Source of the DNA: a virus
Taxonomy: Duplodnaviria; Heunggongvirae; Uroviricota; Caudoviricetes
Reading direction: 5' to 3' (one strand)
Virus record (IMG/VR): IMGVR_UViG_3300038443_000233
Location: 1-64,000 of that record
Length of the DNA stretch: 64,000 nucleotides
Of the stretch, positions 13,531 to 41,744 are shown piece after piece; position 1 is the first letter of the stretch; every line of letters starts with the position of its first letter. The notes under the pieces were generated by a model. That model was not told where the DNA came from and ran no database searches. It worked only from the letters and a program-made list of their open reading frames with translations. The translations under genes and the position numbers were made by a program.

Positions 13531-14117
13531 TTCCCATGCCTTTCTGTATAGCCTGCACCTTCGGAATTCAAGTAGCTTACCACAGCACTGCGGTAGAAGC
13601 AAGCTGCGGAAAACGCTGGCAGCAAGCCGTACTTATCGACGCTGAAATACTTCGTGCGCCTTTTACCTTCACCGACATCATTCCACTGTACCTTGGCATA
13701 AGTGTTTCCTGCCTTGTTCACATGAAATCCGACTCCAGTTTTACCGGACGAGTTGTTCTCGTACATAGCCTTGTTACGGCTGTTCTCTATCGTACCTACT
13801 AGCCTCAAATTGGACGCCCGATTGTTACTTCGGTCGCCGTCTTCGTGGTCAACTTCGTCGTCCGTACCAAGCTCCACTTTGTTCACGATTGCATAGACAA
13901 TCCTGTGGCACTTCAGTTGGACACCTTTGTGCCTCGTGATCCAGCAGCCGGTTGCGTCGTGAAAGTGCCCTACAGCGTCTCCTGCTTTATTGACAACTGT
14001 TGTGTGCTTTCGCCCACGAGGTTTGTCCTTCCGCAGTCGGAGGCAACTTTCACTCGTCTCGTCATAATAAAAGGCAGCACTGAGTTCAGCAAGTGAAAAT
14101 TCAGTGCCCGCTCGCAT
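13527..14117 (-). CDS. HNH homing endonuclease with AP2 DNA-binding domain
   Basis: The HNH motif is CHRIVYAIVNKVELGTDDEVDHEDGDRSNNRASNL. The C-terminus is AP2-like (GVGFHVNKAGNTYAKVQW). Confidence 0.7.
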   Translation of the reverse strand: MRAGTEFSLAELSAAFYYDETSESCLRLRKDKPRGRKHTTVVNKAGDAVGHFHDATGCWITRHKGVQLKCHRIVYAIVNKVELGTDDEVDHEDGDRSNNRASNLRLVGTIENSRNKAMYENNSSGKTGVGFHVNKAGNTYAKVQWNDVGEGKRRTKYFSVDKYGLLPAFSAACFYRSAVVSYLNSEGAGYTERHGK

Positions 14118-15283
14118 TACGCCTTCTCTTTCAGAAGAAGGTAGTGGTTGCTAATACACTTGAAGCTGAAGTCCTTGTCGCATGCCTTGAACACGACGCC
14201 TTCACGCATCACACCCGGATTATCGCCTTCACCCGATGCGTATGTCAAGAGCTTTTGCACAGGGTCTTCGCCTTCCTTCAGTTGCAGGATGTTTCGCAGC
14301 GTACCCTTATCTACCACAGTAGCGTGGTTGATATCGTTCGAGATAGCGTACGACGTGCGTTCCCACGGCAGCATGTACTCTTGCATGTCGATCTTGAAGA
14401 TGTCAAACAGGTGGAATTCAACGCCCTTCACCTTCTCGTAGTTGCCTTGGATGTCCGGAGCAACCAGCTCGCCTTGCAGAGCGATGGAGCCTTCGCACAG
14501 GATGTCCAGATTGTCGTTCAGCTTCTCGATGAGAGGCTTAGCAGCCGTGTGGAAATTCGACGTACCGTCGAGCGGCAGCAGCACGTTACGCGAGCACAGG
14601 CCAAACACCGGCTGAGGTTTCTTGCGCAGCACGAAGTTCTTAATGCGAGTGAACAGCGAGTCCTTGCCATGCACCAGTGCCTTCGCATCTTCGTAGTATT
14701 CGCTACCCGGTACGATACGGAACACCGTCAGGCTGGAACCGTCCTTCTTCACTGTCACTTCGAAGATGGTGTCGAGGTTCTGTTCGATCATGTGCCCGTA
14801 GTTCTGTGCACGCTCTTGGTCCGTCTTCTTGATGAAGTACGGGAACGAGCGTGTCTTCGACGGCATCTGGCCGTTGTTGTTCGAAGTTCTCTCTTCCGGG
14901 GCTTCCCACTTCTGGACGCCCAGAGCCTCGGTCACGTCCATACCCGCGCTTTCAGGGCGAATGTCCTCGAAGTACGGTACGACAGCCAGCGGTAGCAGCA
15001 GACCTTGCGACAGCGTTTTGCGCAACTTGATCGTCTTCAGACGCTCGCCCTTCACGCCGTTGTATTCCTTCGGCTCGTATCCTTCTTTCGTCAGGAACGG
15101 AGCGATGGTGTTCGGCACCCACGAATCGATTTCGAAGTAGACGGCCAACTCACCTTCCTTGAATTCGCCCTTCTTCACGACGACTTGCCAGCCATCGACC
15201 ATTGCAACCTCGATCTTGTCCGCACCAGCAATGGGCATGATTTGTTTGATACGGCGGATGGTTGCCAGTTTACGTTCAGTCAT
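14117..15283 (-). CDS. ATP-dependent RNA ligase, Rnl1 (T4 RnlA)-like
   Basis: Nucleotidyltransferase motif I is KKDGSSL, similar to Rnl1 KEDGSL. Motif IV EGVVFK and a lysine-rich motif V are present. Confidence 0.5.
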   Translation of the reverse strand: MTERKLATIRRIKQIMPIAGADKIEVAMVDGWQVVVKKGEFKEGELAVYFEIDSWVPNTIAPFLTKEGYEPKEYNGVKGERLKTIKLRKTLSQGLLLPLAVVPYFEDIRPESAGMDVTEALGVQKWEAPEERTSNNNGQMPSKTRSFPYFIKKTDQERAQNYGHMIEQNLDTIFEVTVKKDGSSLTVFRIVPGSEYYEDAKALVHGKDSLFTRIKNFVLRKKPQPVFGLCSRNVLLPLDGTSNFHTAAKPLIEKLNDNLDILCEGSIALQGELVAPDIQGNYEKVKGVEFHLFDIFKIDMQEYMLPWERTSYAISNDINHATVVDKGTLRNILQLKEGEDPVQKLLTYASGEGDNPGVMREGVVFKACDKDFSFKCISNHYLLLKEKA

Positions 15284-16353: not shown

Positions 16354-17733
16354 TTATCCCTGCTTCGCAGCTTCCAGTTGTGCGTAGATGCGGTCTGCCT
16401 TATCAGCGCCCAGTGATTGCTTGTCCGCACGGATTTCCACGAAGATCGGCAGCGATAGCGAAGGCTTCTTACGGTCATCACGAGCTTGCGTGATGTCGTT
16501 CGCTTCCACCGTCACCACAGCATTACCGATCAGTTCCGGGTAATCCCAGTACTGTTTCCGCTGTGCATCCGAGAACCCGGAGCCGCACGCACATTCGATC
16601 AGACCGTCTTCGGACTGGATGTAGATGCCGCCCAGCATACCAGCAGCCTTGCCTTCACCTTCATACACACCAGTGACACGCATCTCCACTTGGAACTTGA
16701 TCTTCAGCTTCACCATGTCCTTAGCAGTACCATCCTTCCACAGCGATGCCGGGTCTTTGATGATACAACCTTCGAGGCCACGTTGCAAGTGCTCTTGGTA
16801 GATAGCGAACGCTTCTTCCAACGAGCTGACGATTTCCGTGAAGATGATCGTGACCTGCTTGTTCTCCAGCTTGTCCGCTTCATAGCGCAGCCCGTCCAGA
16901 CGCTCTTCGTACGGACGGTTCGACTTCCCGTCTTCGAATTCCTGCTGCGTCAGCAAGTCCCACGCTTCCATACGAACGGAATACTTCGACAGGTCGAACT
17001 TCTCTCCGTCCTTCAGGGCCGAATTCAGCAGGCCGTTGGCCGTCTTGCGGTCGAGATGGTACGTGGTATCCCCATTACCTTCAACGAATTGCGTCTCGTC
17101 CACCAGAAGTTCACCGACCAGCACCTTACCCGGAGCCAGTCCGTAGGCCAGCTTTTCAGCAAACCATTGCGGGTATTTCGAGCCCTGACGCGTGATTACA
17201 TCTACGGAGCCGTCGAGACGTTTGACGACGTACGCGAACGAACCATCTGCCTTGGTCTGGACGTAGAAGCGCTTCAGCTTACCGAAACGTTCACGAGCCT
17301 TCGCATCCAGCAGCGAGCAACGTTGGTACGGAACCGTGAAGAACAGTCCGGGCCACGTTTTAAGAGCCATTGTCTCGCCTACGTTCGTCTTCCCCAGCTT
17401 ACGGCTAACCATCATGGCAAGCAAATCCCGACCTTCCGCGTTCAACGCTGCTGCGTGTCCAGCAAGACGATTACTTGCTTCGCTTCCAGTGAATACGCGA
17501 TTCGACAGATGCTCCATGAAGCGAAGGTCCGCTACGCCGAATTCTGTCGTGCCCTGATGCAGTTTTTCGTAACCTTTCGGCAGCTTCGACTGGTAGTAGT
17601 TGATAGCAGGATCGAGCGTGGCTCTCACGAACTCTTTCAGCAGTTCGTTGCCCTTATGACTGTCAAGGATGGCTTGTTTTTCCAGCGTACCGCTTGCGTC
17701 ACCTAGTTGTTTGATGATGTCATGCAGTTTCAT
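16354..17733 (-). CDS. ATP-dependent DNA ligase
   Basis: Motif I is KADGSF, motif IV is EGCIIK and motif V is MVKLKIK. The start MKLHDII follows the conserved leader. A promoter (TTGACA-17-GAGAAT) lies at ~17768-17796. Confidence 0.8.
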   Translation of the reverse strand: MKLHDIIKQLGDASGTLEKQAILDSHKGNELLKEFVRATLDPAINYYQSKLPKGYEKLHQGTTEFGVADLRFMEHLSNRVFTGSEASNRLAGHAAALNAEGRDLLAMMVSRKLGKTNVGETMALKTWPGLFFTVPYQRCSLLDAKARERFGKLKRFYVQTKADGSFAYVVKRLDGSVDVITRQGSKYPQWFAEKLAYGLAPGKVLVGELLVDETQFVEGNGDTTYHLDRKTANGLLNSALKDGEKFDLSKYSVRMEAWDLLTQQEFEDGKSNRPYEERLDGLRYEADKLENKQVTIIFTEIVSSLEEAFAIYQEHLQRGLEGCIIKDPASLWKDGTAKDMVKLKIKFQVEMRVTGVYEGEGKAAGMLGGIYIQSEDGLIECACGSGFSDAQRKQYWDYPELIGNAVVTVEANDITQARDDRKKPSLSLPIFVEIRADKQSLGADKADRIYAQLEAAKQG

Positions 17734-17829
17734 ATTGTTCTCTCCTTGGTTGGTTGGTGTGATTCGCATTCTCCACGAAAAATTTTTCCGTGTCAAGCAG
17801 GTAGTGCTACTTATTTTCGCTCCCGGACA

Positions 17830-17904
17830 TTTCTCGGATTTGCTTTTGGAAATCAAAAGTCAGATTTTCAAGCCGGGATGGGGAAATTTTCACTTCTTTC
17901 TTAT
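17830..17904. repeat. direct repeat copy 1 (~75 bp) containing hairpin cttttgGaaatcaaaag
   Basis: ~88% identical to the copy at ~21794-21868. Confidence 0.8.
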
Positions 17905-29830: not shown

Positions 29831-30071
29831 AACGGAGGGATGGTACAAAGGGAAAATAAACGGCGTGCACCAGCGTAACGGCGTTACGTGGGGCCGCACA
29901 TGCAAACGCACATATCGGGGCGGCGTGAATTTCAACACGCGTACACGAGCCATGCGCAAGTATTGGAAAATGCTTAACTCCAATTCAGCACCAGAGAATC
30001 AAGGCAAATGGGGCGGATGGATTAAACCCGAATCATTCCCCGCACCGTGCAAGCTGTACCCGGATGACTAA
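29817..30071 (+). CDS. early small basic protein (~84 aa)
   Basis: ATG at 29817 after 'aagggga', with a 14-nt overlap with the upstream gene. It is followed by a terminator. Confidence 0.45.
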   Translation: MSRNKTEGWYKGKINGVHQRNGVTWGRTCKRTYRGGVNFNTRTRAMRKYWKMLNSNSAPENQGKWGGWIKPESFPAPCKLYPDD

Positions 30072-30078
30072 CCACATA

Positions 30079-30114
30079 GGCCCGTACCTAGACAGGACGG
30101 GCCTTTTCTTTTAG
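30079..30114 (+). terminator. intrinsic terminator of early operon
   Basis: The stem GGCCCGT...ACGGGCC is followed by ttttctttt. Confidence 0.7.
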
Positions 30115-30412
30115 GCAATACTTGCGTAATCAATGAGTAGTCAACCAGCCCTGTCTGCCGACCTAGTACGTAACCCTACCTAACCATGCATGCGGTAACA
30201 CGCCTAGAACGCATGGGAATGGGCCTACATTCAACGAACGCCATTACTTGGCTAGGCTGGTATAGGCAAGCCTATTTAAAACGCTCTAAACGCGTCCTGT
30301 AGAACGTACATATAACACTGTTATTCGCAACGATTATAGTCATAGTCTAGTGCCATAGGCACAGAACATAACTCTATCGGCCTATGGCCGTTGCCTGTAC
30401 TACCTTCCCCAT

Positions 30413-30434
30413 TGACCCCTTGAACGGGGTCAAC
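30413..30434. repeat. perfect palindrome TTGACCCC-TTGAAC-GGGGTCAA
   Basis: 8-bp arms, located inside the palindrome array region. Confidence 0.6.
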
Positions 30435-30916
30435 CTATAGGCCATTGGCCTAATCCTACCTGTGCCATTGGCACAATAGATAACTCTATCGTTCTCTATT
30501 CATCATTCCTATATCATCCCCACATAGCAGAAATACTATCGCCTATGGCGAATTAATAGCACATAGCCATAGGCTATGGCATATACCATGCCCATAGGGC
30601 ATAGCAATAATAGCCTGTGCCTATGGCACTAGACATACTCATATGTGTAGCCAATGACAGACAGGCGGGGCGTTAGCTTAGCCTGTGCACTAGCCAATGG
30701 CTCTTTCTTGGCACGAGAATTGCATGTCCGGGCCTTTGGCCCCTACCAAACGCTATCGATCTACACTCGGCCATAGGCCAGAGCTATAATCGTTTAAACG
30801 AGCTATGAGGCGTTTGCAGAACGCACCCTAGTGCGGACATCAACGAGGCATCGTTCGGCCCTCTACGGGCCTATACGCAAGCCGTAGGCATATCCCTGTG
30901 CCAATGGCACGAATAG

Positions 30917-30925
30917 TTATCCACA
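30917..30925 (+). promoter_or_regulatory. perfect DnaA box TTATCCACA within the palindrome array (a near-box, TTGTGGACA on the opposite strand, lies 20 bp downstream)
   Basis: Exact consensus 9-mer. Confidence 0.45.
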
Positions 30926-31261
30926 CTGGACAGGTAGATGTCCACAACCCAGACGTTCCTCTGGATTTTATACACAGCCCTTTAAACGCGTTTAGAGGCC
31001 CATAGCGACGTTCTCTGTGCCGATGGCACTTTCCCCCTGTCTGAGCCCTCCGGGCTGCTCCTATGATATTTCTGAGCCATTGGCGACCCCAATCGCCGCC
31101 CCCGGCGAGCCGTTAAGCAATCCGTTCGCCCTCCGCAGGTATTACCCTTTTTGAACATATCATCTTGAACGTGTTTCATAGGAGAAATGCCGAGAAAGTT
31201 TCGGCAGTGGGCGGATAAATTTCGCCAATGGCGATGGATATTGCGAATGAGGGCTGTTTCT

Positions 31262-31285
31262 TAAATTTTTTTTTTTTAAGAAAAT
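31262..31285. repeat. homopolymeric T12 tract flanked by CTTAAA/TTTAAG
   Basis: The sequence is cttaaattttttttttttaag. Confidence 0.7.
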
Positions 31286-31467
31286 CAATGACTTAGAAAT
31301 ACAAAGAGCCGGTGCAGCACAACGGCTACATCCCGGCTCTAGGGCTTACAGTTGACGGGCATGGCTGTAAGCATTTGCTCTATAGGGCCAATGGCCCGGT
31401 AGCCCGTGCAGTGACTTGACGTACGCTACACAGCGTAGGATATTCCAAGAGAACGTCAAGAAAAGAA

Positions 31468-31500
31468 AAGCCCCGCACGAGGCGGGGCCAAAGGGTATGC
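31468..31500 (-). terminator. intrinsic terminator for minus-strand operon
   Basis: On the minus strand, GGCCCCGCctcgtGCGGGGCC is followed by ttttcttttc. Confidence 0.65.
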
Positions 31501-31664
31501 CTTTCGGCGTACGCCCGGATGGAAACGGGCAAGAGGAATGTTATGCCCATTGGGCAGGTAGGTATTGATCCAGCTCACGCTGGAGCCAGCCCGCTAGGCG
31601 GGAAGCGGTCATTCCTGAACAGCTCGCGTAGGCGAGCCAATAGGGAAGTAAGCATATTTCTCCT

Positions 31665-31865
31665 TTAGTCAAAGATTTTGGTAAGCTCGTAACGTTTGTT
31701 ATTGTACGAGGGATGGAGTCGATGGTTGCAACCCATCCTTACGGCCCAGTCGGTGAACGCATTGTTCAATCCAACCAGTCCACAGCCAGTGCACCATTGC
31801 TTTCCTCCGACCCGGAGGTCGAAGGTGTGAGGCTCGTATTCGTATTTCTCCTTGGGTTGAGCCAT
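31665..31865 (-). CDS. hypothetical small protein (66 aa)
   Basis: Last gene of the minus-strand operon. Confidence 0.4.
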   Translation of the reverse strand: MAQPKEKYEYEPHTFDLRVGGKQWCTGCGLVGLNNAFTDWAVRMGCNHRLHPSYNNKRYELTKIFD

Positions 31866-34856: not shown

Positions 34857-35411
34857 TTACGCTGCACCGCAAGCGTTTTGTTGCTGAAATTCACGCACGA
34901 TGGCGTCCAGCTTCGCCCAGAGCACCGGGCAACCGCCGACGAGGGCTCCGTCCAGTAGCTCACGCGTCTCTGCAACGATGACAGGAGCGAATTTCGGATC
35001 GTGTTCGATGACGGACGGCAGGTTGTCGCAGCGGTCGGCCAGCTTGATCGTCTTGACGACGGCTGGAGCGTCCTTCAGGCGGGCGATTTCGAACGCTTTG
35101 CGCTCCGCACGGGACGGTGCCGGAGCTTCCCACTCAGTTTTCGTCAGCCAACCCACGAGGACGGCCACGTCGTTGCCGAAATACTCGATGATCTGCTCGT
35201 GCGTGATGTGCGTGTCCTCGACCGTATCGTGCAGCAGGGCCGCTTGAAGCGTCACGAGGTCTTTGTGACCGTGCTGGTCGAGAATTTCAGCGACACGTTT
35301 CGGGTGATGGTAATAATCCTCGCCTGTGTACTTGCGCTTCTGGCCCGCGTGAGCAGCCAGTGCGAAGCCCGAAGCCGCTGCGATAGTCATATCGAATTCA
35401 AAGTCCGTCAT
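34857..35411 (-). CDS. HD-domain (p)ppGpp hydrolase, SpoT/RelA-hydrolase-like small alarmone hydrolase
   Basis: AHAGQKRKYTGEDYYHHPKRVAEIL...AALLHDTVEDT aligns to the SpoT HD motif HxGQ.R..GEPY..HP..VA.IL...AALLHD..EDT. Confidence 0.75.
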   Translation of the reverse strand: MTDFEFDMTIAAASGFALAAHAGQKRKYTGEDYYHHPKRVAEILDQHGHKDLVTLQAALLHDTVEDTHITHEQIIEYFGNDVAVLVGWLTKTEWEAPAPSRAERKAFEIARLKDAPAVVKTIKLADRCDNLPSVIEHDPKFAPVIVAETRELLDGALVGGCPVLWAKLDAIVREFQQQNACGAA

Positions 35412-38095: not shown

Positions 38096-38124
38096 TTGAC
38101 AAGTAACGCTTCATAGTGTAAGAT
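38096..38124 (+). promoter_or_regulatory. promoter TTGACA-17-TAAGAT
   Basis: It precedes the tRNA array. Confidence 0.6.
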
Positions 38125-38400
38125 AGCATTACTGACGAATTCAGTGGTACGAAATAACCAACGTACTGCCATGATTTGAGTAGTCGCCACTTGATTTAAT
38201 TTCCGAAAGGAGGTTGATCCTATCTCGATAGACCCAGCGTTGCAGGGTCTTGGCGAAGTTACCGTCCCCGAAACGACACGCTACGGATTGCTCCAGTGTT
38301 GTCGTAGGCGACTACTCTTCCGTTTGTTCTCCTTGGTGGTTGGTTGCCACACTGTCATCGCGAAAGCAGTTGACCCCGTATCAGTAAGCGGGACTAACAT

Positions 38401-38475
38401 AGCTGACTTACCCGAGAGGAAAGGGACCATCCTTGTAAGATGGAAGCCGTGGGTTCGAATCCTACAGTCAGCACC
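38401..38475 (+). tRNA. tRNA-Thr (anticodon TGT)
   Basis: Cloverleaf: acceptor GCTGACT/AGTCAGC, anticodon loop CTTGTAA, T-arm GTGGGTTCGAATCCTAC, CCA encoded. Confidence 0.7.
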
Positions 38476-38564
38476 ACGAGCCTGCGTTGCCGTCTACGGT
38501 CTTAATTGATTGAGAAGCGGCATGTAAGTCAAATCCCATTGCACACGGGGAGATAGTGTGCCAT

Positions 38565-38639
38565 TCTGGGTGTAAGTCATTGGTAGACAGCCTGTCTTGG
38601 ATACAGGTCGCAGTTGGTTCGATTCCAACCTCCCAGACC
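38565..38639 (+). tRNA. tRNA-Pro (anticodon TGG)
   Basis: Anticodon stem CCTGT/ACAGG, loop CTTGGAT, T-arm GTTGGTTCGATTCCAAC, CCA encoded. There is one acceptor mismatch. Confidence 0.65.
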
Positions 38640-38663
38640 AGAATTCAGTGCTAGTGTACAAAA

Positions 38664-38692
38664 CTTGACAAATTGTCGAGCGTATAGTAAGA
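38664..38692 (+). promoter_or_regulatory. promoter TTGACA-17-TAAGAT (internal to tRNA region)
   Basis: Same architecture as the promoter at 38096. Confidence 0.55.
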
Positions 38693-38878
38693 TAGCAGTA
38701 CGTAACGAATTTGACGTAACAACTACTTGTACCAGCTACGACCTGTAAGCGTACGTACGCGAATACCGGGCAACGTAGGAATGCTGGAACGTCATACTTA
38801 GCAATCGCAGAAGCGGCGTGAGTTAATCTACTCTCACTGAGGCGGAGACGGCCAAGAAACAGAACTGTCCAAGAACAA

Positions 38879-38952
38879 TTGCGGTGTGGTGTAACGGTTA
38901 GCACTATGGGCTCATAACCCGAAAGACCAGTTCGAATCTGGCGTCCGCAACC
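38879..38952 (+). tRNA. tRNA-Met/Ile2-type (anticodon CAT)
   Basis: D-arm GTGT-AACGGTTA-GCAC, anticodon loop CTCATAA, T-loop TTCGAAT. Two acceptor positions are mismatched, so the boundaries are approximate. Confidence 0.6.
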
Positions 38953-39023
38953 ATCCAATCCCGGTAACGTGTCCGGGTTTCTGCCGGTGAGCCGTGCAGG
39001 GAGAGCAAAACACGATTGACAAT

Positions 39024-39110
39024 TGTGGTGTGAGCGGAATTTGGTATCGCAGCGGACTGTTAATCCGTCACCGAAAGGTAACTGCTGGTTCGAGTCCAGC
39101 CTCCACAGCC
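39024..39110 (+). tRNA. atypical class II (long variable arm) tRNA with anticodon GTT (Asn) - assignment uncertain
   Basis: T-arm GCTGG-TTCGAGT-CCAGC is perfect. Anticodon stem GCGGA/TCCGT, loop CTGTTAA. The 15-nt variable arm folds as ACC-GAAA-GGT. The acceptor has a T-T mismatch. Confidence 0.45.
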
Positions 39111-39160
39111 AAGTTGAGAGTTAGCTGATAGCTCATGTCCAAAAATCAGCACGAACATAA

Positions 39161-39235
39161 TGGCTCTATCGTATAGTGGTTATTACGCCGGATTGTCGAT
39201 CCGAGCACGGGAGTTCAATTCTCCCTAGAGTCGCC
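39161..39235 (+). tRNA. tRNA-Asp (anticodon GTC)
   Basis: Acceptor GGCTCTA/TAGAGTC, anticodon loop TTGTCGA, T-loop TTCAATT, CCA encoded. Confidence 0.7.
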
Positions 39236-39251
39236 AGAATAGGACTAGACG

Positions 39252-39649
39252 TGAACACAACAAACATCGGAGACATCACTGAGCAAGGCTTTGTTCTACG
39301 GTGTTTGGAAAAAGAGATACCGATACTTCGTCCCGTAGGTAACAATCTACCGTACGACTTCGTGATTGAATATGAAGGCGCTCTCCGCAAGGTGCAAGTT
39401 AAGACGGGCCGGAAGGCCGCTTACGAAGGTTCGTACATATTCAACACACGTTCAACGTCGAAGAATTTTAATGAGGTAGTGCAGAAAACTTACGAAGGTA
39501 AGATCGACTACTTCGCAGTACAGTTCAGGGACCACTCCCGCGAATTCTATCTGATTCCGGTAGGGGACACAGGGACCAATGCTACCACTCTGTACCTTGG
39601 CGATAATCCTCGTCCGGGGCAGAATGTAGGCTCCAAGTACAAGTTTTAA
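39252..39649 (+). CDS. putative nuclease-fold protein (PD-(D/E)XK-like; free-standing/homing endonuclease candidate) embedded in tRNA array
   Basis: Track ORF 39176..39649 overlaps tRNA-Asp. The plausible start is GTG at ~39252 after AGGA. PYDFVIEYEG...RKVQVK resembles a PD-(D/E)XK core. The assignment is tentative. Confidence 0.35.
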
Positions 39650-39655
39650 GAATAT

Positions 39656-39728
39656 GCGGCCTACCTACTGGGATAGGGCTTTGCCTTCCAAGCAAATGAA
39701 AACGGTTCGAATCCGTTAGGCCGCTCCA
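39656..39728 (+). tRNA. tRNA-Gly (anticodon TCC)
   Basis: Acceptor GCGGCCT/AGGCCGC is perfect. Anticodon stem TTTGC/GCAAA, loop CTTCCAA. T-arm AACGG-TTCGAAT-CCGTT. Confidence 0.75.
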
Positions 39729-39830
39729 AGTTCCCCGACAAGGAACAGCAGCTCGTAACAGAGCTTCGCTACGTTAGTTTCGTAAAACTCAGGTTGGTAC
39801 GTACCTGTCAGTAATCGTACCACGAACATT

Positions 39831-39907
39831 GGGCAAGTGACGGAATTGGTTTACGTGCTACTCTTAGAAAGTAGATTTTGTGGGTTCGAGTCCCACCTTG
39901 CCTACCA
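39831..39907 (+). tRNA. class I tRNA with anticodon TAG (would read CUA/Leu) - atypical
   Basis: Acceptor GGGCAAG/CTTGCCT, anticodon stem CTACT/AGTAG, loop CTTAGAA. Short 5-nt variable arm. T-arm GTGGG-TTCGAGT-CCCAC. Confidence 0.55.
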
Positions 39908-39912
39908 GTCAG

Positions 39913-39950
39913 GGATGTCGTCGCAGGTTCGATTCCTGCCGCTTAAAACC
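39913..39950 (+). other. orphan tRNA 3'-half-like element (perfect T-arm GCAGG-TTCGATT-CCTGC without matching 5' half)
   Basis: It follows the previous tRNA immediately. An orphan canonical D-arm-like 5' half (TAGCTCAGTCGGTAGAGCG) lies downstream at ~39957-40000. Confidence 0.35.
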
Positions 39951-39999
39951 TTAAGTGGTCTAGCGTAGCTCAGTCGGTAGAGCGGTCCCACATTACAAC

Positions 40000-40082
40000 G
40001 TGCGAGTGGCTTGGGTAAATCGGTACAGCCAGTAGGCTCAAACCCTACGCTTTTGTCGGTTCGAATCCGGCCTTGCATACCA
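40000..40082 (+). tRNA. tRNA-like, anticodon CAA (Leu?) with irregular D-region
   Basis: Anticodon arm GTAGG-CTCAAAC-CCTAC is perfect. T-arm GTCGG-TTCGAAT-CCGGC. Acceptor GTGCGAG/CTTGCAT pairs with two G-U wobbles. The D-arm is unusually long. Confidence 0.4.
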
Positions 40083-40093
40083 AGCAGTACAAT

Positions 40094-40167
40094 GGTGACG
40101 ATAGTGTAATGGGAGCATTGCTGTCTGTGAAACAGCAGGAATGGGATCGAAACCCAGCGTCACACCA
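40094..40167 (+). tRNA. tRNA-His (anticodon GTG)
   Basis: Anticodon stem GCTGT/ACAGC, loop CTGTGAA. An extra 5' G is consistent with the His G-1 identity element. Confidence 0.65.
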
Positions 40168-40309
40168 AATTTATTTACTCATACGTGGGTTCCTAGTACG
40201 GGGGTTCGAGTCCCAATGGTAACGGAAGTGGAATCCAGCTACCGCCGACTAGCTACCGGCGAAATACGGCGCCTAGCGAGCGAACGGCGTATGCGTAAGT
40301 GAATTTAAT

Positions 40310-40385
40310 GCGGAAGTAGCTGATGAGGTCTTAGCGCTGGCCTGAAAACCCAGAGATGAAGGTTCGATACCTTCATTCCGCACCA
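40310..40385 (+). tRNA. tRNA-Phe (anticodon GAA)
   Basis: T-arm GAAGG-TTCGATA-CCTTC, acceptor GCGGAAG/ATTCCGC, anticodon loop (C)CTGAAAA. Confidence 0.6.
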
Positions 40386-40395
40386 GACGAACAAC

Positions 40396-40487
40396 GCGTG
40401 TAAGCCGAATATTGGTTAAGTCGGCGCTGACTGTAAATCAGTAGTGGGCTCGACCCGGTGGAGGTTCAATTCCTTCTGCACGCACCA
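40396..40487 (+). tRNA. tRNA-Tyr (anticodon GTA), class II
   Basis: Anticodon stem GCTGA/TCAGT, loop CTGTAAA. The variable arm is 17 nt. Acceptor GCGTGTA/TGCACGC. Confidence 0.7.
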
Positions 40488-40493
40488 TACAGT

Positions 40494-40570
40494 GTTCCAT
40501 TCGACTTCTGGTTGAGGTCAGCGTCCTTTCAAGTCGCGCAGGCTCGGTTCAAATCCGGCATGGAACTCCA
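40494..40570 (+). tRNA. tRNA-Glu (anticodon TTC)
   Basis: Acceptor GTTCCAT/ATGGAAC is perfect. D-stem GACT/GGTC. Anticodon loop CTTTCAA. Confidence 0.7.
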
Positions 40571-40577
40571 AAACAAT

Positions 40578-40652
40578 GCTTGGTTAATTCAGCGGTAGAA
40601 AATCATCCTTACAAGGTGATAGTCGTTGGTTCGAATCCAACACCAAGTACCA
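40578..40652 (+). tRNA. tRNA-Val (anticodon TAC)
   Basis: T-arm GTTGG-TTCGAAT-CCAAC. Anticodon stem TCATC/GGTGA, loop CTTACAA. Confidence 0.7.
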
Positions 40653-40658
40653 AGATAT

Positions 40659-40733
40659 GGGCTGGAGCGTAGGTTACGCTGGCCTCCCTTGCACGGAGCG
40701 CTGATCGGAGTTCGATTCTCCACTGGTCCACCA
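40659..40733 (+). tRNA. tRNA-Ala (anticodon TGC)
   Basis: The G3:U70 wobble in the acceptor is the Ala identity element. D-stem AGCG/CGCT. Anticodon loop CTTGCAC. Confidence 0.8.
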
Positions 40734-40800
40734 GAGTAGAAGCGTGGAACAACACAAAGCTACGGCTAATAACGGCTGCTGCGTGCCACGCTCAATGAAC

Positions 40801-40874
40801 CGCCGCATGGCAGAGTGACTATGTACTTGCCTGCAAAGCTTGGGAGATTGGTTAAAATCCAATTGCGGCGTCCA
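40801..40874 (+). tRNA. tRNA (isotype unresolved; possible Cys GCA)
   Basis: Acceptor CGCCGCA/TGCGGCG is perfect and T-arm ATTGG-TTAAAAT-CCAAT is perfect. The D and anticodon arms are poorly paired in my manual fold. Confidence 0.5.
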
Positions 40875-40881
40875 AGACAAT

Positions 40882-40954
40882 ACGTGATCCGAGGGATATC
40901 GGCTCTGGCGCTACGAACGCTGGCTGGGTGGTTCGACTCCATCATTACGTGCCA
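40882..40954 (+). tRNA. tRNA-Arg (anticodon ACG)
   Basis: Anticodon stem TGGCG/CGCTG, loop CTACGAA. T-arm GGTGG-TTCGACT-CCATC. Acceptor ACGTGAT/ATTACGT. Confidence 0.7.
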
Positions 40955-40956
40955 TA

Positions 40957-41030
40957 TAATCTGCTACTTACCTTCACCCTGAATTGACAGGGCATTCGCG
41001 GAAGGGGAGCCACGTAGGTAGCAGATTATA
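40957..41030 (+). other. long imperfect hairpin (TATAATCTGCTACTTACC ... GGTAGGTAGCAGATTATA) with structured 42-nt loop
   Basis: A ~17-bp inverted repeat lying between tRNA-Arg and tRNA-Ser. Confidence 0.4.
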
Positions 41031-41031
41031 T

Positions 41032-41121
41032 GGAAGATTAACCAGCCGGGGCGCTGGCGGGCTTTGCTAAAGCTTTGGTGCGTGTCGAGCGCATGGCAGT
41101 CGGGATGTCAATCTTCCGCCA
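41032..41121 (+). tRNA. tRNA-Ser (anticodon GCT), class II, 90 nt
   Basis: Acceptor GGAAGAT(T)/(A)ATCTTCC + G + CCA. Anticodon stem GGGCT/AGCTT, loop TTGCTAA. The long variable arm GTGCG-TGTCGAG-CGCAT has a non-canonical T-loop. The terminal sequence resembles selC, but the anticodon is not TCA. Confidence 0.55.
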
Positions 41122-41229
41122 GAGTAAATTTTCGCTGAACGTGGTAAGCGTTTCCGTCACCAAGCGCTTGAGGGCGGTAGCTAAGTAAAAACAACTCTTC
41201 GCCATTATCGGACTAAATGGCACGAACAT

Positions 41230-41321
41230 GGAGACTCAATCCGATTGGCGACGGAACCGGCCTTGAAAGCCGTGCGAGCTAGAAATAGCCTTGGGAGTTC
41301 GACTCTACCCAGTCTCCGCCA
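41230..41321 (+). tRNA. tRNA-Ser (anticodon TGA), class II, 92 nt
   Basis: Acceptor GGAGACT/AGTCTCC is perfect. D-stem TCC/GGA with a long loop. Anticodon loop CTTGAAA. Variable arm GCTA-GAAA-TAGC. T-loop TTCGACT. Confidence 0.7.
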
Positions 41322-41461
41322 GAGTACCCGTAAGGGGCTTGCTACGTTGCTGCTTCTTAAGCGTTAAAGCAGACTATAGGTTGGCCGTAGATTTGTGTGC
41401 ACACGAAGAACGGCGTGATGGTACTAACGTACATGACAGGTCGAGAAAGATCGACACGAAT

Positions 41462-41537
41462 AGTCCCGTAGTTTAACTGGTTAAAACGGTGGACCGATAA
41501 TCCACTAATCTGTGTTCGATCCACAGTAGGACTACCA
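41462..41537 (+). tRNA. tRNA-Ile (anticodon GAT)
   Basis: D-stem GTTT/AAAC, anticodon stem GTGGA/TCCAC, loop CCGATAA. T-arm CTGTG-TTCGATC-CACAG, CCA encoded. Confidence 0.75.
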
Positions 41538-41574
41538 AGAACAATTCCCGGCAAATCGACAAGGGCAGATACTA

Positions 41575-41700
41575 CTCTTTGAAAGTAGGTGGCTTGGAGC
41601 GTTACCAAGGCTGGGTGCCAACGCTATATACGCGCATGTACCAAGGCTGGCGAGCGAGGTTCCAACCCTTGCTGTGGAGCGTTCGATTCGATTCCGCGTA
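41575..41700 (+). other. tRNA-like debris / tandem 13-nt repeat (TACCAAGGCTGG x2) with an anticodon-arm-like CTACT-CTTTGAA-AGTAG
   Basis: There is no complete cloverleaf. The arm is a paralogue of the arm in the tRNA at 39831. Confidence 0.3.
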
Positions 41701-41713
41701 TGCCCTCTAAGGT

Positions 41714-41744
41714 AGCCCGTGTCTAACGATACGGGCTTTTTTTG
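41714..41744 (+). terminator. intrinsic terminator closing the tRNA array
   Basis: The stem AGCCCGT...ACGGGCT is followed by TTTTTTT. Confidence 0.8.

What the first reader, a model, noticed from the sequence alone, without database searches (positions are those of the whole stretch)
38096..41744. Promoter-to-terminator tRNA array (~19 genes) with several non-canonical members
I could fold about 19 cloverleaves between the promoters at 38096 and 38664 and the terminator at 41714. The isotypes are Thr, Pro, Met, Asp, Gly, His, Phe, Tyr, Glu, Val, Ala (with G3:U70), Arg, Ser x2 and Ile, plus several unresolved ones.

Oddities are as follows.
(a) A class II, long-variable-arm tRNA whose anticodon loop reads GTT (Asn) at ~39024-39110, one base away from the Tyr anticodon GTA.
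(b) A class I tRNA with anticodon TAG at 39831. A near-identical anticodon arm with TTG lies in tRNA-like debris at ~41575.
(c) Orphan half-tRNAs, a 3' T-arm half at 39913 and a canonical 5' D-arm half at 39957.
(d) A 90-nt tRNA-Ser(GCT) whose ends (GGAAGAT..ATCTTCCGCCA) mimic selC.

Such arrays are known in large virulent phages. The atypical members could be decoys or replacements that evade host anticodon nucleases, or could recode.
Basis: partly seen in the sequence, partly recalled or inferred. Interest (0 to 1): 0.6.

Follow-up and report, generated by a model that had tools for sequence, protein, structure and literature searches.

The report
Phage tRNA operon with variant tRNAs
This is a real transfer-RNA gene cluster of an uncultured ~91-kb phage, and its "odd" members are structural tRNA variants that recur in many phages, plus one rearranged tRNA look-alike RNA; they are conserved rather than junk, but their function is untested.

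Summary
Window 38096-41744 is a promoter-to-terminator tRNA operon in a novel ~91.5-kb myovirus-like phage. It carries 21 tRNA-like genes for 19 amino acids (no Lys), in an order shared with five related IMG/VR phages.

- (a) The long-arm tRNA with anticodon GTT is a true tRNA-Asn homologue (U1:A72, G73). It has an added 3-bp, GAAA-capped extra arm. Such Asn tRNAs are common in phage contigs and occur in cultured phages.
- (b) The class I tRNA(TAG) is a tRNA-Leu that has lost its variable arm, also a common phage type. The "TTG debris" is a diverged tRNA-Gln followed by a diverged tRNA-Trp.
- (c) The two "orphan halves" are one unit: a circularly permuted tRNA-like RNA (T arm, closed acceptor hairpin, D arm, closing stem). 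It covaries across relatives and resembles the tRNA-like domain of bacterial Y RNA YrlA. No Ro60-binding stem or Ro60 gene was found.
- (d) Ser(GCT) is a diverged tRNA-Ser with a degenerate T loop, not selC-like.

Evasion of tRNA-targeting defences is plausible but only inferred. Recoding is not supported. Several conserved non-tRNA RNAs also lie in the operon.

The parts
38096..38124 (+). Promoter P1 (TTGACA-17-TAAGAT)
   Evidence: The sequence context is conserved in all relatives.
38178..38317 (+). Conserved structured 5' leader RNA, closed by an 11-bp helix (GAGTAGTCGCC/GGCGACTACTC). No Rfam family matches it.
   Evidence: 70-84% identical across five relatives. RNAalifold predicts 37 pairs, 9 of them with compensatory changes. 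No Rfam hit.
38402..38476 (+). tRNA-Thr(TGT). It has a class II-type D arm and a short variable region.
   Evidence: Orthologues in L001, L003 and L005 carry a GAAA-capped extra arm.
38566..38640 (+). tRNA-Pro(TGG)
38665..38693 (+). Promoter P2, nearly identical to P1
38880..38953 (+). tRNA-Met(CAT)
39024..39111 (+). tRNA-Asn(GTT) with a 14-nt extra arm (C-ACC-GAAA-GGT-AAC). It has U1:A72 and G73.
   Evidence: The arm covaries with L006. The type is widespread.
39162..39236 (+). tRNA-Asp(GTC)
39176..39649 (+). PD-(D/E)XK endonuclease ORF inserted in the array. The true start is probably downstream of the tRNA-Asp gene.
   Evidence: Pfam PF11645, E = 2.7e-26.
39656..39728 (+). tRNA-Gly(TCC)
39831..39907 (+). 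tRNA-Leu(TAG) lacking the long variable arm. It is 77 nt, has A73 and a Leu-type D arm.
   Evidence: A clean 9-nt gap replaces the arm when aligned with class II phage Leu(TAG). The type is widespread.
39912..39989 (+). Circularly permuted tRNA-like RNA. Order: closing stem GGGAT/GTCCC, T arm, closed acceptor-like hairpin, D arm.
   Evidence: Rfam YrlA hit of 30.6 bits against model positions 26-82. The minimum-free-energy fold gives this structure. 10 of 18 pairs covary among the window, L005 and L006.
40000..40082 (+). tRNA-Leu(CAA) with a 6-nt variable region and an enlarged D loop
   Evidence: Weak Rfam hit. Relaxed ARAGORN finds it. It aligns to class II orthologues in L003 and L005.
40094..40166 (+). 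tRNA-His(GTG)
40167..40307 (+). Structured spacer RNA with a ~17-bp terminal stem and an internal T-arm-like hairpin
   Evidence: 74% identical to L007. Consensus fold.
40310..40385 (+). tRNA-Phe(GAA)
40396..40487 (+). tRNA-Tyr(GTA), canonical class II
   Evidence: Rfam 38.7 bits. Relaxed ARAGORN finds it.
40494..40570 (+). tRNA-Glu(TTC)
40578..40652 (+). tRNA-Val(TAC)
40659..40733 (+). tRNA-Ala(TGC) with G3:U70
   Evidence: Relaxed ARAGORN finds it. Aligned to orthologues.
40801..40874 (+). tRNA-Cys(GCA)
40882..40954 (+). tRNA-Arg(ACG)
41032..41121 (+). Diverged tRNA-Ser(GCT). It has a 7-bp acceptor stem, G73 and a degenerate T loop (GTCGGGA).
   Evidence: Found only by alignment to the L005 and L006 Ser(GCT) genes. 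ARAGORN and Rfam do not find it. Fold.
41230..41321 (+). tRNA-Ser(TGA)
   Evidence: tRNA-Sec model cross-hit of 41.2 bits, below the gathering score of 47. Relaxed ARAGORN finds it. Orthologues.
41462..41537 (+). tRNA-Ile(GAT)
41546..41620 (+). Diverged tRNA-Gln(TTG)-like gene, possibly a pseudogene. It has a non-canonical T loop (AGCGTTA).
   Evidence: ARAGORN finds it only at the 85% threshold. It sits in the syntenic position of Gln in L003, L006 and L007.
41628..41704 (+). Diverged tRNA-Trp(CCA)-like gene. It ends in CCC, not CCA.
   Evidence: Relaxed ARAGORN finds it. Weak Rfam hit of 24.6 bits. A further tRNA hit follows Gln at the same position in L006 (6615-6686; its anticodon was not determined).
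41714..41744 (+). Intrinsic terminator

Best explanation
**What it is.** The region is a polycistronic tRNA operon of a virulent-type ~91.5-kb phage.
- Two near-identical sigma-70-type promoters drive one transcript that ends at an intrinsic terminator.
- It encodes 21 tRNA-like genes. Twenty of them have an encoded CCA end. Most are preceded by an A/T-rich leader ending in ...ACAAT, that is, U at position -1.
- Host RNase P and 3'-end processing enzymes would be expected to cut it into a nearly self-sufficient decoding set. The set has one tRNA per amino acid (two each for Leu and Ser), lacks Lys, and has U34 in the four-codon boxes.

**The unusual members.**
- tRNA-Asn carries an inserted 3-bp GNRA-capped extra arm.
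- tRNA-Leu(UAG) and tRNA-Leu(CAA) have lost the long variable arm.
- Ser(GCT), Gln and Trp are diverged copies with degenerate T loops.
- The two "half tRNAs" are one circularly permuted tRNA-like RNA. It keeps every nucleotide that builds the tRNA elbow (U8, A14, G15, G18G19, C48, T54-Psi55-C56, A58). Its acceptor end is closed by a loop and its anticodon stem is open. This is the architecture of the tRNA-like domain of bacterial Y RNA YrlA.

**Shown.** Gene content, order, structures, conservation, covariation, and the wide occurrence of these variants in phages.

**Inferred.** The set keeps phage translation going when host tRNAs are depleted or cleaved. Remodelling the variable-arm region changes a surface that immune tRNA nucleases use, while keeping synthetase identity elements (GUU with G73 for Asn; A73 with a Leu-type D arm for Leu). 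The permuted RNA acts as a tRNA-body mimic.
For: - **Boundaries.** Promoters and terminator.
- **tRNA calls.**
- **Synteny.** Five relatives share the gene order.
- **Orthologue alignments.**
- **Asn extra arm.** It shows compensatory change. Of 97 long phage Asn tRNAs, 75 have a predicted arm, 69 of them with 3-4 bp stems, 39 have GNRA loops, and 88 have G73. Cultured examples exist: Erwinia phage pEp_SNUABM_01 Asn (86 nt) and Pseudomonas phage Psa21 Asn (90 nt). In bacterial genomes only 13 of 120 pattern hits are such tRNAs, and 8 of those 13 sit in loci with at least 9 tRNA genes.
- **Armless Leu(TAG).** 118 of 120 in further viral contigs are armless. It is annotated as tRNA-Leu in Salmonella phage PVP-SE1 and others.
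- **Permuted module.**. At least 14 analogous modules without an overlapping tRNA call occur in other phage arrays.
- **Codon usage.** The missing anticodons correspond to rare codons: TTA is 3% of Leu codons, ATA 7% of Ile codons, and AGR 18% of Arg codons.
- **Published precedent.** PARIS AriB cleaves tRNA-Lys(UUU), Thr(UGU) and Asn(GUU), and T5 variants rescue infection (PMC12409363). [quoted passage not shown]
- **From my own knowledge.** E. coli LeuRS does not need the long arm.
Against: - No expression, processing, charging or cleavage data exist for this phage, and its host is unknown.
- The Asn anticodon stem keeps the U36-A-A-U-C-C sequence of the AriB site. Any PARIS evasion would therefore have to come from elsewhere in the tRNA.
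- Extra arms also occur on Met, Trp, Cys and Ile(TAT) tRNAs, so they are not tied to known nuclease targets.
- Relatives differ. L003 has a class I Asn, and L001 and L007 lack the permuted module. These features are therefore dispensable.
- Ser(GCT), Gln and Trp look partly decayed, which fits relaxed selection on some members.
- The permuted module scores far below the Rfam YrlA gathering score (30.6 versus 69 bits).
Confidence: 0.72

Rival explanations
1. The array only compensates for codon usage or tRNA supply. The structural oddities are neutral drift or decay in fast-evolving, weakly constrained phage tRNA genes. The half-tRNA element is recombination debris.
For: - Ser(GCT), Gln and Trp have degenerate T loops and fail the standard detectors.
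- Members vary between close relatives.
- A homing-type endonuclease ORF sits in the array, which fits frequent rearrangement.
- The tRNA set matches the phage's common codons.
Against: - The extra arm keeps a paired stem through compensatory changes and keeps a GNRA cap across unrelated contigs.
- Armless Leu(TAG) keeps A73, the Leu-type D arm and a fixed 77-nt length in 63 of 120 contigs (118 of 120 are 74-79 nt).
- In the permuted module 10 of 18 pairs covary and 98% of cells are paired. It also retains all elbow-forming nucleotides.
- Similar modules with perfect 7-9-bp hairpins occur in unrelated arrays.
Confidence: 0.2
2. Recoding or deliberate mistranslation. The long-arm tRNA(GUU) is charged by SerRS, LeuRS or TyrRS and inserts another amino acid at Asn codons, as nematode nev-tRNAs and bacterial allo-tRNAs do.
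For: - It has a class II shape with a non-Leu/Ser/Tyr anticodon.
- Its D arm resembles the Leu type (GGAATTTGGTAT).
- G73 is also the discriminator base of tRNA-Ser.
Against: - It keeps U1:A72, G73, GUU and, from my memory of the sequence, the E. coli-type Asn anticodon arm.
- The arm stem is only 3 bp, whereas SerRS needs a long arm (own knowledge).
- A73, which Leu and Tyr identity require, is absent.
- The positional orthologue in L003 is an ordinary class I tRNA-Asn.
- Of the 23 Asn codons in TerL, 17 align with Asn in L003, and substitutions in more distant relatives are mostly to Asp.
- It is the only Asn tRNA in the set.
Confidence: 0.04
3. The permuted element is a bona fide Y RNA. It works with a Ro60 (Rsr) protein, supplied by the host or encoded in the unseen ~7 kb of the phage genome, in RNA degradation or repair.
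For: - Its best Rfam match is YrlA.
- YrlA-type RNAs are known next to Ro60 genes in phages (PMC4201824).
- Other phage arrays hold full-length versions with a long outer stem. Several of these have a nearby 477-aa DUF2828 plus vWA-like protein with a DVSGSM MIDAS motif.
- The phage encodes an RNA ligase.
Against: - The window module has no outer, Ro-binding stem. The flanking tRNAs lie only 4 and 10 nt away.
- No TROVE or DUF2828 protein is present in the window or in 10 kb on either side, which together cover about 84 of 91.5 kb.
- The score is below half the YrlA gathering score.
Confidence: 0.12

Closest known systems
tRNA gene clusters of large virulent phages (T4, T5, FelixO1-like, rV5-like, Pakpunavirus)
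   Same: - tRNA genes in tandem on one strand behind strong early or middle promoters.
- Interspersed homing-type endonuclease ORFs and stable non-tRNA RNAs. T4 has species 1 and 2 RNAs in its cluster (own knowledge).
- Nearest cultured TerL relatives are Pseudomonas Pakpunavirus-like phages at 41% identity.
   Different: - No DNA-level match to any of the 50,697 deposited phage records.
- Near-complete set of one tRNA per amino acid.
- A conserved ~140-nt structured leader RNA.
- A permuted tRNA-like module embedded directly between two tRNAs.
YrlA, the Y RNA-like RNA (Rfam RF02553; Chen et al. 2014, PMC4201824)
   Same: - Same order of elements: optional V stem-loop, T arm, closed acceptor-like stem-loop, D arm, then a closing helix.
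- T-loop and D-loop consensus nucleotides are conserved.
- The Levitt pair 15-48 can form.
   Different: - Scores 30.6 bits here (34.2 bits in L005) against a gathering score of 69.
- No Ro60-binding helix.
- No rsr or TROVE gene nearby.
- Embedded in a tRNA operon, so its ends would be made by tRNA-processing enzymes.
Phage tRNA variants that escape immune tRNA nucleases (T5 tRNA-Lys, Thr and Asn versus PARIS AriB; T5 tRNA-Tyr versus retron-Eco7; PMC12409363, PMC13096335, PMC10264068)
   Same: - Phage-encoded isoacceptors that differ from the host tRNA.
- The variable loop is a documented cleavage site and a documented resistance determinant.
   Different: - Published cases are base substitutions in the anticodon stem-loop, the D loop or the variable loop.
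- Here a whole arm is gained (Asn) or lost (Leu).
- No nuclease has been tested on these tRNAs.
Class II tRNAs with non-Leu/Ser/Tyr anticodons (nematode nev-tRNAs; bacterial allo-tRNAs, PMC5389517)
   Same: A long variable arm combined with an anticodon that normally belongs to a class I tRNA.
   Different: - Those are Leu- or Ser-identity bodies that recode.
- The window tRNA keeps Asn identity elements.
- Its arm is only 3 bp plus a tetraloop.
- Its acceptor/T geometry is the normal 7/5.
Circularly permuted tRNA genes of the red alga Cyanidioschyzon merolae (own knowledge)
   Same: The 3' half (T arm and 3' acceptor strand) lies upstream of the 5' half (5' acceptor strand and D arm).
   Different: - No anticodon loop can be rebuilt from the termini. 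The tails are 4 and 10 nt and lack U33 and R37.
- Bacteria have no splicing endonuclease.
- The acceptor end is a short closed loop.

Membership tests
Canonical tRNA (Rfam RF00005 / ARAGORN default) | A cloverleaf scoring above the curated threshold | tested here: met
   13 genes reach at least 38 bits against a gathering score of 29. ARAGORN finds 14 at default settings. Not met for Leu(CAA) (22.9 bits), Ala, Ser(GCT), Gln and Trp, which are found only with relaxed settings or by orthology.
Bacterial tRNA-Asn | Anticodon GUU and discriminator G73 | tested here: met
   The loop is CTGTTAA and the 3' end is ...CACAGCCA. 88 of 97 long-arm phage Asn tRNAs have G73.
Bacterial tRNA-Asn | Class I variable region of 4-5 nt | tested here: not met
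   The variable arm is 14 nt with a 3-bp stem and a GAAA loop.
Bacterial tRNA-Leu | A73 and a Leu-type D arm (3-bp stem and long D loop with GGAATTGG) | tested here: met
   Alignment with class II phage Leu(TAG) genes.
Bacterial tRNA-Leu | Long variable arm (class II) | tested here: not met
   Leu(TAG) has a 5-nt variable region and Leu(CAA) a 6-nt one.
tRNA-Sec (selC) | Anticodon UCA, 8-bp acceptor stem, 6-bp D stem, and a hit to the RF01852 model | tested here: not met
   At 41032-41121 the anticodon is GCT, the acceptor stem is 7 bp, and no RF01852 hit appears even at E = 10 or below. Orthologues are ordinary tRNA-Ser(GCT).
YrlA / bacterial Y RNA | tRNA-like domain in the order T arm, closed acceptor-like stem, D arm | tested here: met
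YrlA / bacterial Y RNA | Reaches the Rfam gathering score | tested here: not met
   30.6 bits in the window and 34.2 bits in L005, against 69. None of 12 further loci with such modules reach it.
YrlA / bacterial Y RNA | Long terminal helix that carries the Ro60 binding site | tested here: not met
   The closing stem is only 5 bp, and the neighbouring tRNAs lie 4 and 10 nt away.
YrlA / bacterial Y RNA | Encoded next to an rsr (TROVE) gene | tested here: not met
   No TROVE hit in the window ORFs scanned or in the 10-kb extensions. About 7 kb of the genome was not seen.
YrlA / bacterial Y RNA | Binds Ro60 and is modified by TruB and DusA | not testable with these tools
   Needs immunoprecipitation and modification mapping.
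Permuted tRNA gene | The termini rebuild a 7-nt anticodon loop after joining | tested here: not met
   The tails are GTCA (5') and ACATTACAAC (3'). The 3' tail is the shared ...ACAAY leader of the next tRNA.
Bacterial sigma-70 operon | -35 and -10 hexamers upstream and an intrinsic terminator downstream | tested here: met
   This is a consensus match only; transcription was not measured.

The most novel reading that the evidence does not exclude
The permuted tRNA-like RNA (39912-39989) may be a Ro60-independent mimic of the tRNA body. In this reading the cell's own tRNA-processing enzymes release it from the array transcript.

It has no anticodon loop to cut and no free CCA end. It could therefore soak up or mislead tRNA-targeting immune nucleases or sensors that dock on the tRNA elbow and D loop.

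Together with arm-gain (Asn) and arm-loss (Leu) tRNAs, it would belong to a widespread and so far undescribed phage strategy of remodelling tRNA architecture rather than single bases.

A still bolder version, which I rate at about 3%, is that it is a permuted tRNA precursor closed by the phage's own RNA ligase.
Probability: 0.18. Interest if true: 0.8.

Novelty: new variant of a known kind. Interest (0 to 1): 0.5.

Why it matters
- **The class rule is broken routinely.** Textbooks divide bacterial tRNAs into class I (short variable region) and class II (Leu, Ser, Tyr). This operon, and the hundreds of viral contigs the follow-up turned up, show that phages routinely break that rule in both directions. 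Some of these tRNAs are already annotated in cultured phages, yet I could find no paper that discusses them.
- **The variable arm is a known battleground.** Recent work shows that bacterial immune nucleases cut host tRNAs, including in the variable arm. These variants are therefore ready-made candidates for resistance determinants and for mapping what those nucleases recognise.
- **The permuted RNA extends the Y RNA idea.** It appears here inside a tRNA operon in a phage with no visible Ro60 gene. That makes the function of this tRNA mimic testable in a simple genetic system.

Tried and rejected
- **DNA relatives among deposited phages.** Megablast of the array against 50,697 phage records found nothing.
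- **Downstream gene as a handle.** Using the 565-aa protein just downstream to fetch relatives found none. The TerL protein worked instead.
- **Metagenome scan with TerL.** It added no useful new array loci.
- **Asn as a Tyr derivative.** Rejected. The window Tyr and Asn sequences are unrelated, and the discriminator bases differ (G73 versus A73).
- **PARIS-specific explanation.** In this clade the extra arms fall on Thr(UGU), Asn(GUU) and Lys(UUU), which are exactly the AriB targets. The idea weakened for two reasons. Extra arms also occur on Met, Trp, Cys and Ile(TAT) tRNAs in other arrays. The window Asn also keeps the AriB site sequence.
- **Permuted tRNA closed by the phage RNA ligase.** Rejected as the main reading. 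The tails do not make an anticodon loop, and the 3' tail is the generic leader of the next tRNA.
- **Covariance model of the module.** Most high-scoring hits were junctions of tandem tRNAs, the false-positive class noted by Chen et al. Each hit had to be filtered against ARAGORN calls.
- **Is the DUF2828 plus vWA protein near other phages' modules a Ro60 relative?** Inconclusive. A sequence profile hits only a vWA domain in the PDB (E = 0.004) and no TROVE family in Pfam.
- **Literature.** Searches for long-arm Asn or armless Leu in phages found no paper on them.

Full report
**Context.** The window belongs to an uncultured phage.
- It encodes a T4-type large terminase, a Mu-type portal and an E-type major capsid protein.
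- It also encodes a family A DNA polymerase, helicases, a primase-helicase, a DNA ligase and an RNA ligase.
- Exact-protein look-ups place it on JGI contigs of up to 91,532 bp.
- No DNA match exists among 50,697 deposited phages.
- The nearest cultured TerL relatives are Pseudomonas Pakpunavirus-like phages at 41% identity.
- Seven IMG/VR contigs share 69-88% TerL identity (L001-L007). Five of them hold the array region (L001, L003, L005, L006, L007).

**Observation check.**
- Two sigma-70-type promoters (TTGACA-17-TAAGAT) start at 38096 and 38665. A 10-bp GC-rich hairpin with a T-run lies at 41714-41744.
- ARAGORN at default settings tRNAs. Rfam above the gathering score, adding Tyr.
- Lowering ARAGORN's threshold adds Leu(CAA), Tyr, Ala, Ser(TGA), Gln(TTG) and Trp(CCA).
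- Ser(GCT) is recovered only by aligning it to intact orthologues.
- The gene order is Thr, Pro, Met, Asn, Asp, Gly, Leu(TAG), Leu(CAA), [Lys], His, Phe, Tyr, Glu, Val, Ala, Cys, Arg, Ser(GCT), Ser(TGA), Ile, Gln, [Trp]. It is shared by L001, L003, L005, L006 and L007. These are therefore orthologous genes, not chance cloverleaves.
- The window has 21 tRNA-like genes for 19 amino acids. Lys is absent here but present in L003, L005 and L006.
- Twenty of the 21 encode CCA. Sixteen are preceded by ...AT, often ...ACAAT. From my own knowledge this fits the preference of bacterial RNase P for U at position -1.
- The anticodons absent from the set correspond to codons that are rare in the phage: TTA is 3% of Leu codons, ATA 7% of Ile codons, and AGR 18% of Arg codons.

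**Oddity (a), the long-arm tRNA with GTT.**
- Both programs place GTT at positions 34-36.
- The gene has U1:A72 and G73. From my memory of the E. coli sequences, its anticodon arm GCGGACTGTTAATCCGT is identical to E. coli tRNA-Asn and its T arm is close to it.
- The extra arm is C-ACC-GAAA-GGT-AAC. The L006 orthologue has C-GCA-GAAA-TGC-ACT. The stem is therefore kept by compensatory change and the GAAA loop is conserved. In L003 the same position holds a normal 76-nt tRNA-Asn.
ARAGORN confirmed 97 Asn(GTT) tRNAs of 81-95 nt in the 120 loci.
- Of those 97, 75 have a predicted arm, 69 of them with 3-4 bp stems, 39 have GNRA loops (27 GAAA), and 88 have G73.
- Cultured phages carry them too, annotated simply as tRNA-Asn: Erwinia phage pEp_SNUABM_01 (86 nt) and Pseudomonas phage Psa21 (90 nt).
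- In 596 Gb of bacterial and archaeal genomes, the same pattern gave only 13 real long-arm Asn tRNAs among 120 hits. Eight of those 13 sit in loci with at least 9 tRNA genes.
- In the window's relatives, Thr(TGT) (L001, L003, L005) and Lys(TTT) (L003, L005) also carry GNRA-capped arms.
- In arrays selected for long Asn, extra arms are also enriched on Thr, Met, Trp and Cys tRNAs. They are common on Ile(TAT) in both sets, at 65%.

**Oddity (b), the class I tRNA with TAG, and the TTG arm.**
- The 77-nt gene has A73 and the Leu-type D arm. It aligns end to end with class II phage Leu(TAG) genes except for a clean 9-nt gap where their variable arm lies.
- All five relatives with the array have the short form.
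- Leu(CAA) at 40000-40082 is likewise short-armed in the window, L006 and L007, but class II in L003 and L005.
118 of 120 Leu(TAG) genes there are 74-79 nt long.
- Full-length similar genes are annotated as tRNA-Leu in Salmonella phage PVP-SE1 and in Vibrio, Aeromonas and Proteus phages.
- The TTG anticodon arm at ~41575 has the same stem as Leu(TAG). It belongs to a low-scoring tRNA-Gln-like gene (41546-41620) with a T1·T72 mismatch, G73 and T loop AGCGTTA.
- That gene is followed by a tRNA-Trp-like gene (41628-41704) ending in CCC. The Gln-like gene sits in the position Gln holds in L003, L006 and L007, and a further tRNA hit follows Gln in L006 (6615-6686, anticodon not determined). Both window genes may be decaying.

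**Oddity (c), the orphan halves.**
- Positions 39912-39989 fold into one unit: closing stem GGGAT/GTCCC, a 6-nt linker, T arm GCAGG-TTCGATT-CCTGC, an acceptor-like hairpin closed by a loop, TA, D arm GCTC-AGTCGGTA-GAGC, and G.
- The same element lies between Leu(TAG) and Leu(CAA) in L005 and L006.
- Across the three copies, 98% of cells pair and 10 of 18 pairs show changes on both sides. No shuffle reached this, and all slid controls were far lower. The caveat is that the structure was derived from these same sequences.
- U8, A14, G15, G18G19, C48, T54, C56 and A58 are all kept.
- Its only Rfam match is YrlA: 30.6 bits to model positions 26-82 here, and 34.2 bits over the full model in L005. 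Both are far below the gathering score of 69.
- A covariance model built from the three copies found many tandem-tRNA junctions, a known false-positive class (PMC4201824). It also found at least 14 sites with no overlapping tRNA call.
- Those 14 sites fold into the same layout with perfect 7-9-bp hairpins. Many also have an 8-12-bp outer stem, the classic Y RNA shape. L062 has two minimal copies wedged between tRNAs, like the window's.
- None of these reach the YrlA gathering score.
- Several of those other phages encode a nearby 477-aa DUF2828 plus vWA-like protein. I could not show that it is related to Ro60.
- The window phage has neither a TROVE nor a DUF2828 protein in about 84 of its 91.5 kb.

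**Oddity (d), Ser(GCT).**
- The gene at 41032-41121 has a 7-bp acceptor stem, G73, an anticodon arm GGGCT-TTGCTAA-AGCTT and a variable arm. Its T loop is GTCGGGA, where the L005 and L006 orthologues have TTCGAAT.
- It has no tRNA-Sec model hit.
- The shared GGAAGAT...ATCTTCCGCCA ends reflect the acceptor features common to SerRS substrates (own knowledge), not selC mimicry.

**Mechanism.**
- Shown: a conserved, promoter-driven, terminator-bounded set of tRNA genes. Arm-gain and arm-loss variants that keep synthetase identity elements. A conserved tRNA-body mimic.
- Inferred, supply: the set maintains translation when host tRNAs are depleted.
- Inferred, evasion: the remodelled arms alter nuclease recognition. 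Published systems show the principle. AriB of PARIS cuts Lys(UUU), Thr(UGU) and Asn(GUU) and reads the D loop as well as the anticodon stem (PMC12409363). [quoted passage not shown]
- Against a simple PARIS story: the window Asn keeps U36-A-A-U-C-C, and extra arms are not limited to AriB targets.
- Recoding is unlikely. Asn features are retained, and Asn codons in TerL align with Asn or Asp in relatives.

**Novelty.**
- Phage tRNA arrays are well known.
- Long-arm Asn and armless Leu are present in public phage records. I found no paper that discusses them.
- YrlA-type RNAs are known next to Ro60 genes, including in phages (PMC4201824). A minimal, stem-less copy inside a tRNA operon, in a phage without a visible Ro60 gene, is a new variant.
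- Overall this is an ordinary kind of locus that carries under-described variants.

Noticed in passing
window 38178-38317: A ~140-nt structured RNA lies between promoter P1 and tRNA-Thr. It is closed by an 11-bp helix and is 70-84% identical in five relatives, more conserved than many of the tRNAs. Nine pairs covary. It has no Rfam match and no convincing ORF.
   Followed up: partly
window 40167-40307: The His-Phe spacer folds into an RNA with a ~17-bp terminal stem and an internal T-arm-like hairpin (GGGGG-TTCGAGT-CCC). It is conserved in L007. A motif CCTAGTACGGGG is shared with a different spacer element in L003 (4947-5077).
   Followed up: partly
window 38800-38879, 41370-41437 and 40955-41030: Two more spacer segments are 82-95% identical across relatives: the segment upstream of tRNA-Met and the Ser-Ile spacer. 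A long perfect hairpin (TATAATCTGCTACTTACC...GGTAGGTAGCAGATTATA) lies between Arg and Ser(GCT).
   Followed up: no
window, the 5 nt upstream of each tRNA (38397-41627): Sixteen of the 21 tRNA genes are preceded by ...AT, often AACAAT. This looks like a uniform processing leader. The permuted module is not preceded by it.
   Followed up: partly
window 30347-31086: A ~1.6-kb stretch (30071-31665) has no ORF of 60 aa or more. It holds at least six copies of the palindrome GTGCCAWWGGCAC and sits where the GC and AT skews change sign. It may be an origin of replication or an array of regulator-binding sites.
   Followed up: partly
window 14117-15283 (-), 16354-17856 (-), 34857-35411 (-): The phage encodes an RNA ligase (PHA02142 OB fold plus RNA_ligase), a separate ATP-dependent DNA ligase, and an HD_4 domain protein. 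No polynucleotide kinase was seen. The RNA ligase hints at RNA or tRNA repair.
   Followed up: no
window 39176-39649; L003 6285-9716; L005 5734-9273: A PD-(D/E)XK endonuclease ORF interrupts the array between Asp and Gly. Relatives L003 and L005 instead have a ~3.4-kb insertion between Arg and the Ser/Ile genes. The array is therefore a hotspot for insertions.
   Followed up: no
L165 11738-13171; L244 12298-13731; also L190, L151, L182, L246, L179, L049, L209, L176: A conserved 477-aa protein with DUF2828 and DUF7788 (vWA-like, with a DVSGSM MIDAS motif) recurs in phage tRNA-array loci. In L165 it lies ~330 nt from a Y RNA-like RNA; in L244 it lies ~6 kb downstream of one. It may be a Ro60 analogue, but this is unproven.
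   Followed up: partly
L262 3326-3789; L126 1365-1661: A GOLLD RNA (215.7 bits) and a bacterial-type RNase P RNA (148.8 bits) lie inside the tRNA regions of two unrelated viral contigs.
   Followed up: no
loci L026-L267 (for example L126, L063, L068, L069): About 65% of the tRNA-Ile(TAT) genes in the sampled phage arrays are 90-96 nt long with a long variable arm. Long-arm Met, Trp, Cys and Lys tRNAs also occur.
   Followed up: no
L320 (Verrucosispora chromosome) and L346 (Micromonospora): Actinomycete loci with 34-36 tRNA genes within 8 kb also contain a 90-nt long-arm tRNA-Asn.
   Followed up: no
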